Shown in pieces: positions 43,968 to 52,216 of a DNA stretch of 64,000 bases. The DNA is taken from NCBI GenBank assembly GCA_030141605.1, contig JAQGDQ010000023.1, positions 558,001 to 622,000 on the forward strand, in the 5' to 3' direction. Origin of the DNA: Tubiluchus corallicola. Its lineage: Eukaryota; Animalia; Priapulida. Under the pieces are notes generated by a model that made no database searches, was not told the origin of the DNA, and saw only the letters and a program-made list of their open reading frames with translations. Within the stretch, counting starts at the first letter, position 1. Each line of letters starts with the position of its first letter. Both the position numbers and the translations under genes were made by a program.

Positions 43968-52216
<8,249 letters not shown>

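What the first reader, a model, noticed from the sequence alone, without database searches (positions are those of the whole stretch)
50922..50945. Racemase catalytic re-face serine replaced by cysteine (YSCGNH instead of HSSGNH)
Seen: exon 3 begins VTYSCGNHG, with the Cys codon at 50931-50933. Established: in PLP-dependent serine/aspartate racemases this motif is HSSGNH, and its second Ser (human SRR Ser84) is the re-face proton donor needed for racemisation; Ser/Thr dehydratases have Ala there (SAGN). Cys is neither, and the neighbouring His (human H82) is also changed to Tyr. The ORF is intact over 9 exons with the PLP Lys, Gly loop and ATP-site residues retained, so it does not look like a pseudogene. 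Inference: this may be a Lys/Cys two-base PLP racemase that uses a thiol acid, as PLP-independent Asp/Glu racemases do, or an enzyme with a new substrate or a shifted racemisation/elimination balance. I do not know of a characterised natural example.
Basis: partly seen in the sequence, partly recalled or inferred. Interest (0 to 1): 0.8.

Follow-up and report, generated by a model that had tools for sequence, protein, structure and literature searches.

The report
Aspartate-racemase-type enzyme with catalytic cysteine swap

Summary
A minus-strand, 9-exon, 329-aa gene with no stops has TGT (Cys) at 50933-50931, aligned to human Ser84. The codon is read in runs of two studies. None of 341 fetched homologues has Cys there. 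Tyr82 is ordinary in the wider family.

The substrate loop is SSSD, the aspartate-racemase type. The Lys114 equivalent, proposed to acidify Ser84 through a water, is Arg against Lys in 341 of 341. The genome holds a second family member.

Best reading (0.5): a duplicate aspartate-type racemase that likely uses Lys plus a Cys thiol. Against it: a bacterial dehydratase-like clade has Arg114 with mostly Ala84 and one Cys, so an eliminase (0.27) or a relaxed duplicate (0.2) stay open. No orthologue, transcript, structure or assay was obtained.

A Lys/Cys PLP racemase is already published in another fold (OrnR, PMC13397332), so this is a new variant, not new chemistry. The scan had not noted it on other DNA.

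The parts
52034..52216 (-). Exon 1 (Met1-Lys61); Phe53 and the PLP lysine Lys54 (human F55, K56) at 52060-52055
   Evidence: PALP match
51285..51326 (-). Exon 2 (14 codons, variable loop)
   Evidence: a diverged orthologous piece with flanking intron in run X5
50776..50945 (-). Exon 3: YSCGNH motif, Ile at the Gln89 column (50918-50916), Arg at the Lys114 column
50931..50933 (-). TGT, Cys80, at the column of human Ser84 (re-face acid/base)
   Evidence: same letters in runs X1, X2, X4; Cys in 0 of 341 homologues
50841..50843 (-). AGA, Arg110, at the column of human Lys114
   Evidence: Lys in 341 of 341 homologues; read in X1 and X2 only, one sample
50301..50385 (-). Exon 4; completes Arg132 (human R135), which is split across the exon 3/4 junction
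50325..50336 (-). Triple-serine loop S-S-S-D (human 152-155), aspartate-racemase type
   Evidence: loop defined in PMC6424897 section 18 and PMC11850409 section 16
49263..49389 (-). Exon 5; four-glycine PLP phosphate loop at 49326-49315
48036..48086 (-). Exon 6; Glu207 (human E210) in the VEPxGKxL motif common among the invertebrate homologues
46660..46784 (-). Exon 7; Asp236 (human D238)
45561..45611 (-). Exon 8
43968..44123 (-). Exon 9; Glu282, Cys312 (pyridine-N partner, Cys in 110 of 115 homologues), Asn315, stop TGA

Best explanation
This is an intact duplicate gene of the invertebrate serine/aspartate racemase family whose product likely still racemises an amino acid, most likely aspartate, using Lys54 on one face and the thiol of Cys80 as the predicted acid/base on the other. 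Shown: the intact gene, the PLP-binding residues, Cys at the Ser84 column, Arg at the Lys114 column, the SSSD loop and the Arg135 equivalent. Inferred: Lys54 removes the alpha proton from the PLP aldimine and Cys80-SH puts one back from the opposite face. A thiol is acidic enough by itself (general chemistry, recalled), so the proposed Ser84-water-Lys114 relay would no longer be needed and Lys114 could change to Arg. The SSSD loop and Arg132 would hold a second carboxylate. ATP activation would be weaker because the Gln89 equivalent is Ile.
For: The reading frame and all eight introns are intact. K56, F55, the glycine loop, N86, H87, R135, E283 and N316 equivalents and the pyridine-N Cys are kept. 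All 115 animal-type homologues have a hydroxyl at this column (103 Ser, 12 Thr), and Cys is a one-base change that keeps an acidic side chain. S84A, S84D and S84N lose racemisation while S84T keeps a tenth (PMC6424897 passages). Lys114 is the residue proposed to lower the pKa of Ser84 (PMC6424897, PMC6411801), and it is changed here against Lys in 341 of 341. The SSSD loop marks aspartate racemases, and oyster SSSD enzyme and mouse SSS mutants showed no serine elimination (Table 2 of PMC6424897), which leaves a serine-dehydratase role less likely. OrnR shows that a PLP racemase can use Lys/Cys (PMC13397332). Exons are closer than intron to the diverged relative in run X5: 8 differences in 133 exon bases against 17 in 95 intron bases, Fisher p 0.009 (counts; test).
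Against: No orthologue was found: the best identity is 54% and no other animal sequence has Cys, so conservation of the Cys cannot be shown. In 19 genomes of a bacterial dehydratase-like clade, Arg at the 114 column is the rule (18 of 19) with Ala in 16, Ser in 2 and Cys in 1 at the 84 column. There Arg114 goes with a mostly non-acidic residue and Cys looks like a tolerated swap. A partial metagenome gene has Cys with Lys114 (L021). Lys114 is also kept in all 77 Ala-84 proteins fetched, so it is not there only for the relay. Changes at conserved columns are not significantly clustered in exon 3 (p 0.19-0.36). A second family member exists in the genome and could carry the ordinary job. The exon-intron test rests on short pieces chosen by a likeness filter, and 3 of the 4 exon 2 differences change amino acids.
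Confidence: 0.5

Rival explanations
1. The duplicate has given up racemisation and works as a PLP beta-eliminase, for example on L-threo-3-hydroxyaspartate or L-serine-O-sulfate. Cys80 is then just a small residue, like the Ala of Ser/Thr dehydratases.
For: Both partners of the proposed re-face relay changed together. The bacterial clade around L005 (best family match PRK06815 threonine/serine dehydratase, below cut-off) has Arg114 in 18 of 19, Leu or Ile at the Gln89 column in 19 of 19, and Ala/Ser/Cys at 84, the same three-column pattern as here. Human S84A keeps elimination and its preference for charged substrates (PMC6424897). The R135 equivalent is kept. Two proteins above the cut-off of PRK06381, annotated threonine synthase, also have Cys and Arg at these columns (L025, L029).
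Against: None of the 115 animal-type homologues, including many paralogues, has dropped the hydroxyl. SSS-loop enzymes lacked serine elimination in the table of PMC6424897. The activities of the bacterial proteins are annotations, not assays.
Confidence: 0.27
2. A spare duplicate under relaxed selection. S84C, K114R and H82Y are single-base changes that drifted in while the other copy does the job, and the protein has little or no useful activity.
For: Contigs in X1, X2 and X4 match 50790-50849 with 9 differences in 60 and continue into a family-like sequence and a donor site in the same phase: a paralogue. The protein departs from 15 of 99 well-conserved columns, 5 with residues seen in no homologue, the second highest of 14 lone-lineage rows. 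Its end branch is 0.84 against a median of 0.27.
Against: No stop, frameshift or broken splice site in nine exons. It keeps 69 of 77 columns that are at least 90% conserved, and its departures lie within the range of other lone rows (2-19). The neighbouring COQ3-like gene is as far from named relatives (55%), so the long branch may reflect poor sampling of the lineage. Exons are better conserved than intron against X5.
Confidence: 0.2
3. The Cys codon is an assembly error or a rare private allele.
For: X1 and X2 are one sample and may be the window's source; the independent contig has depth 3.9 and contigs drop rare variants.
Against: Three runs from two samples and two studies give the same codon with no other letter listed.
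Confidence: 0.03

Closest known systems
Ark-shell (Scapharca/Anadara broughtonii) aspartate racemase, PDB 5YBW
   Same: Best PDB hit for exon 3 (E 6e-16) and the same length, 329 aa; SSSD loop and Cys as pyridine-N partner (PMC6424897).
   Different: 5YBW has HSSGNH, Gln89 and Lys114 equivalents (alignment); this protein has YSCGNH, Ile and Arg.
Human serine racemase (PDB 3L6B)
   Same: Fold-type II PLP enzyme; K56, F55, glycine loop, N86, H87, R135, E210, D238, E283, N316 equivalents present.
   Different: S84 is Cys, K114 is Arg, H82 is Tyr, Q89 is Ile, loop HPNQ is SSSD, S313 is Cys; no Asp at the D216 metal position by offset from E210, as in most invertebrate homologues.
Ornithine racemase OrnR of Salmonella (PMC13397332; abstract and Discussion read)
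   Same: PLP racemase with Lys and Cys as the two acid/base groups; C164A is inactive.
   Different: Fold III (alanine racemase family), Cys replaces a Tyr from a different loop, conserved across a clade and assayed; here fold II, Cys sits in the Ser column, one lineage, unassayed.
GenB2 epimerase (PMC11420954; passages read)
   Same: PLP epimerase that needs a cysteine.
   Different: Fold I; its Cys9 is proposed as a proton shuttle, not the direct alpha-face acid; sugar substrate.
PRK06381 (NCBIfam NF004996, annotated threonine synthase) and the PRK06815-like clade around L005
   Same: Fold II proteins in which Cys at the Ser84 column occurs with Arg at the Lys114 column (L025, L029, L005).
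   Different: About 33% identical over the aligned part, prokaryotic, no known racemase activity seen by me; in the L005 clade Cys is 1 of 19.

Membership tests
Serine/aspartate racemase family (fold-type II, PALP) | PALP domain with PLP lysine in SFK.RG, four-glycine loop, pyridine-N partner in xGGN | tested here: met
Serine/aspartate racemase family (fold-type II, PALP) | Closest relatives are animal SerR/AspR rather than threonine dehydratases | tested here: met
   Best blastp hits 49-54% to named invertebrate serine racemases; PDB ranking; quick tree places it among them without a starred clade and without a dehydratase outgroup
Serine/aspartate racemase family (fold-type II, PALP) | Ser (or Thr) re-face base at human position 84 | tested here: not met
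   Cys80; 103 Ser and 12 Thr in 115 homologues
Serine/aspartate racemase family (fold-type II, PALP) | Lys at human position 114 | tested here: not met
   Arg110; Lys in 341 of 341
Serine/aspartate racemase family (fold-type II, PALP) | Arg at human position 135 | tested here: met
   Arg132; 115 of 115
Animal aspartate racemase subtype | Two or three serines in loop 152-154 | tested here: met
   SSSD; 21 of 115 homologues have xSS, 7 of them SSSD, and all 21 have Ser84 and Lys114
Animal aspartate racemase subtype | Racemises aspartate in vitro | not testable with these tools
   needs an assay
Ser/Thr dehydratase | Ala at position 84 and no racemisation | tested here: not met
   Cys, not Ala; activity untested
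Lys/Cys two-base PLP racemase (OrnR-like mechanism) | Cys thiol about 4 A from the substrate alpha carbon opposite the Lys, and essential | not testable with these tools
   Position inferred from the ungapped alignment only; the spliced protein was not folded
Lys/Cys two-base PLP racemase (OrnR-like mechanism) | Cys conserved across a clade | tested here: inconclusive
   No orthologue covering exon 3 found

The most novel reading that the evidence does not exclude
The first natural fold-type II amino-acid racemase that uses a cysteine thiol as its second base: an animal aspartate racemase in which Ser84 became Cys and thereby made the Lys114 relay unnecessary, selected for a new rate, pH range, redox control or substrate.
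Probability: 0.3. Interest if true: 0.72.

Novelty: new variant of a known kind. Interest (0 to 1): 0.5.

Why it matters
How a serine hydroxyl can act as the re-face acid of serine racemase is unsettled; the standing proposal is a Ser84-water-Lys114 relay (PMC6424897, PMC6411801). This gene is a natural double variant of exactly those two positions in an otherwise normal aspartate-racemase scaffold. A four-way mutant cycle (Cys/Ser by Arg/Lys) here and in human SRR would test the relay directly. If it racemises, Lys/Cys catalysis would have arisen in a second PLP fold. If it only eliminates, it is an animal racemase duplicate turned lyase. Either way, annotation by family name would mislabel its chemistry.

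Tried and rejected
No whole genome is held for the window, so the paralogue could not be read. No RNA holder was listed. The one run guessed to be RNA, X6, gave no cover on any exon; it shares next to none of the window's words, so this says nothing on expression. X5, a diverged relative under the same species label, did not cover exon 3. Three protein searches (exon 3 by words; exon 3 by phmmer over 1.84 billion representatives, best 150 listed; a profile that scores this protein at 483 bits against a list cut at 427) found no close orthologue. The ESM Atlas gave only generic PALP clusters. A Cys84-Arg114 covariation idea came from L005, L025 and L029 and was rejected as general, because Arg is clade-wide around L005 whatever stands at 84. 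Of 37 pattern loci, 29 did not align to the protein, L002 and L020 were dropped as weak matches (L002 has no NCBIfam family; L020 was not scanned), and L011 was dropped because its gene lies in several frames. Active-site clustering of changes was not significant. The careful tree did not finish; the quick tree was used. The COQ3-like neighbour did not place the animal: 80% to one unnamed protein, then 55% to Priapulus. No structure of the spliced protein was predicted. Literature searches for racemase + S84C, SCGNH and serine racemase + Ser84 + cysteine + mutant + catalytic base listed nothing relevant.

Full report
Observation. The minus strand at 50945-50778 translates as VTYSCGNHG.... Nine exons (52216-52034, 51326-51285, 50945-50776, 50385-50301, 49389-49263, 48086-48036, 46784-46660, 45611-45561, 44123-43968), all bounded by GT-AG, give 990 nt and 329 aa with no internal stop. 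The splicing is inferred from homology and splice signals, not from RNA. Exon 3 aligns without gaps to human serine racemase 80-131 and best to ark-shell aspartate racemase 5YBW, so Tyr78, Cys80, Ile85 and Arg110 stand on human His82, Ser84, Gln89 and Lys114. The window holds no second exon 3 and no tandem copy.

Is the codon real? A 2.4-kb contig of run X1 spans 49030-51399 with no other letter. A contig of X2 (same sample, depth 162) differs only at one intron base, and a contig of X4 (another sample and study, depth 3.9) spans 50901-51115 with no other letter. X1 and X2 may be the window's source, so X4 is the only independent witness, and it covers the Cys codon but not the Arg110 codon. 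All are contigs, which drop rare variants.

How unusual is it? Among all 341 homologues fetched up to that point, the Ser84 column has Ser 246, Ala 77, Thr 15, Trp 1, unaligned 2 and Cys 0; the Lys114 column has Lys in 341 of 341. In the 115 newly listed top hits of the profile search (many named invertebrates, others unnamed) the counts are Ser 103, Thr 12 and Lys 115. These are the best-scoring listed hits, not the whole family. Tyr at His82 is common in the wider family (YSS in 15 of 219). The other residues that look odd are normal for invertebrate members: Cys at S313 (110 of 115), Ser at G239 (9 of 115), Ala after E283 and the VEPxGKxL motif.

Substrate loop. Residues 149-152 are SSSD. 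Two or three serines here mark animal and plant aspartate racemases (PMC11850409 section 16; PMC6424897 section 18). In the set of 115, 21 have xSS, and all 21 keep Ser84 and Lys114. The R135 equivalent, which binds a second carboxylate (PMC6424897 passages), is kept.

Relatives. No close orthologue is on record in what I could search: best identity 54%, end branch 0.84, no supported clade in a quick tree of 77 rows. The protein scores 483 bits on the profile whose list was cut at 427, so a close orthologue among the scored candidates would probably have been listed. The neighbouring COQ3-like gene is also only 55% identical to its best named relative, so the lineage is thinly sampled. The genome has a second family member: contigs in X1, X2 and X4 match 50790-50849 with 9 differences in 60, and their 30-letter loose ends, read on the minus strand, give CTVVVPNNTP before and PTSR plus a GT donor in the same phase after (my reading of the printed ends). 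Its residues at 84 and 114 were not visible. Run X5 holds a diverged orthologous piece over exon 2 and its introns and pieces over exons 1 and 5, but not exon 3. Exon 1 and 2 pieces differ at 8 of 133 bases and intron at 17 of 95 (Fisher p 0.009); the pieces are short and filtered by likeness, so this is a weak sign of coding constraint.

Decay or remodelling? The protein keeps 69 of 77 columns conserved at 90%. At the 85% level it departs at 15 of 99, five with residues seen in no homologue (S80C, K110R, P172S, R222V, P248A); 13 other rows without close relatives depart at 2-19, with 0-12 unique. It is at the upper end but not outside the range. The departures are not significantly clustered in exon 3 (p 0.19-0.36).

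Cys elsewhere in fold II. One strict degenerate pattern gave 13 loci in the GTDB genomes and 24 in metagenomes. Eight of 37 align to the protein; five are credible: L005, L021 (dehydratase/racemase-like), L025, L029 (above the PRK06381 cut-off) and L004 (PRK06381-like, below cut-off). I did not measure how many Ser or Ala genes the same pattern frame would catch, and the pattern misses other contexts. L005, L025 and L029 have Arg at the 114 column, L004 Gln and L021 Lys. Around L005, 19 of 124 genomes have a homologue: Arg114 in 18, and Ala 16, Ser 2, Cys 1 at 84. So there is no SCGN racemase clade in these searches, and this parallel favours the lyase reading.

Mechanism. In human SRR, Lys56 and Ser84 are the two bases (PMC6333871 passages). 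S84A, S84D and S84N lose racemisation and S84T keeps about a tenth (PMC6424897). A Ser84-water-Lys114 network is proposed to make the hydroxyl acidic enough (PMC6424897; PMC6411801; the primary paper, Nelson 2017, not read). I commit to this: Lys54 deprotonates, Cys80-SH reprotonates from the other face, the relay is dispensable so Lys became Arg, and the SSSD loop with Arg132 selects aspartate (0.5). Residues are shown; every catalytic step is inferred. Rivals are a beta-eliminase (0.27), a relaxed duplicate (0.2) and an error or rare allele (0.03).

Known precedent. Salmonella OrnR is a fold III PLP racemase with Lys36/Cys164 (PMC13397332, abstract and Discussion read). GenB2 is a fold I PLP epimerase that needs Cys9 as a proposed shuttle (PMC11420954 passages). 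For the serine/aspartate racemase family, searches for racemase + S84C, SCGNH, the five-term search, and K114 or Lys114 listed no natural or engineered Cys variant. The library lacks most subscription papers, including Uda 2016, 2017 and Uda and Moe 2022, which I saw only as citations. I opened no supplements, and their alignments could hold such a variant. PMC11048566 (passages) added nothing.

Earlier scan notes: none by sequence or in this genome; one by words concerns the PLP-independent Asp/Glu racemase family and did not bear on this.

Verdict. A real and rare active-site variant, a new variant of a known kind. It sits on the two residues of an open mechanistic proposal and is easy to test, but it is a single lineage without orthologues, expression or assay, and the chemistry has a precedent in another fold. 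Interest 0.5.

Noticed in passing
runs X1, X2, X4 against window 50790-50849: A second serine/aspartate racemase family gene elsewhere in the same genome, with the exon 3 donor in the same phase. Its catalytic columns were not seen.
   Followed up: partly
window 55002-55898 (+): Single-ORF COQ3-like ubiquinone O-methyltransferase, 299 aa, head to head with the racemase gene about 2.8 kb apart; 80% to one unnamed protein, 55% to Priapulus.
   Followed up: partly
window 36935-38125 (+): Long ORF with Glyco_transf_49 (dystroglycan glycosyltransferase-like) match.
   Followed up: no
window 33024-33716 (+): Leucine-rich-repeat protein exon, apparently with a hydrophobic N-terminal stretch.
   Followed up: no
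window 12626-13054 (-): Integrase core (rve) fragment of a retrotransposon, just below the Pfam cut-off.
   Followed up: no
window 44460-47550: Introns 6-8 of the gene are filled with very high-copy dispersed repeats (summed contig depth in the thousands).
   Followed up: no
L038-L056: A Bdellovibrionota clade of PRK06815-like proteins with Arg at the Lys114 column in 18 of 19 and Ala, Ser or Cys at the Ser84 column.
   Followed up: partly
L025, L029: Proteins above the PRK06381 cut-off (annotated threonine synthase) with Cys where the threonine-synthase-like loci have Thr, and Arg where they have Lys; their true reaction may differ from the annotation.
   Followed up: partly
P0231, P0237, P0248, P0262, P0269, P0273, P0283, P0287, P0295, P0304, P0307, P0334: Natural Thr at the Ser84 column in 12 of 115 homologues, including sea urchins, scallops, a crab, a sponge and an octopus.
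   Followed up: no
run X5: Carries the same species label as X1 but differs by 4-15% over the pieces laid on exons and introns here; perhaps another species or a deep lineage.
   Followed up: no
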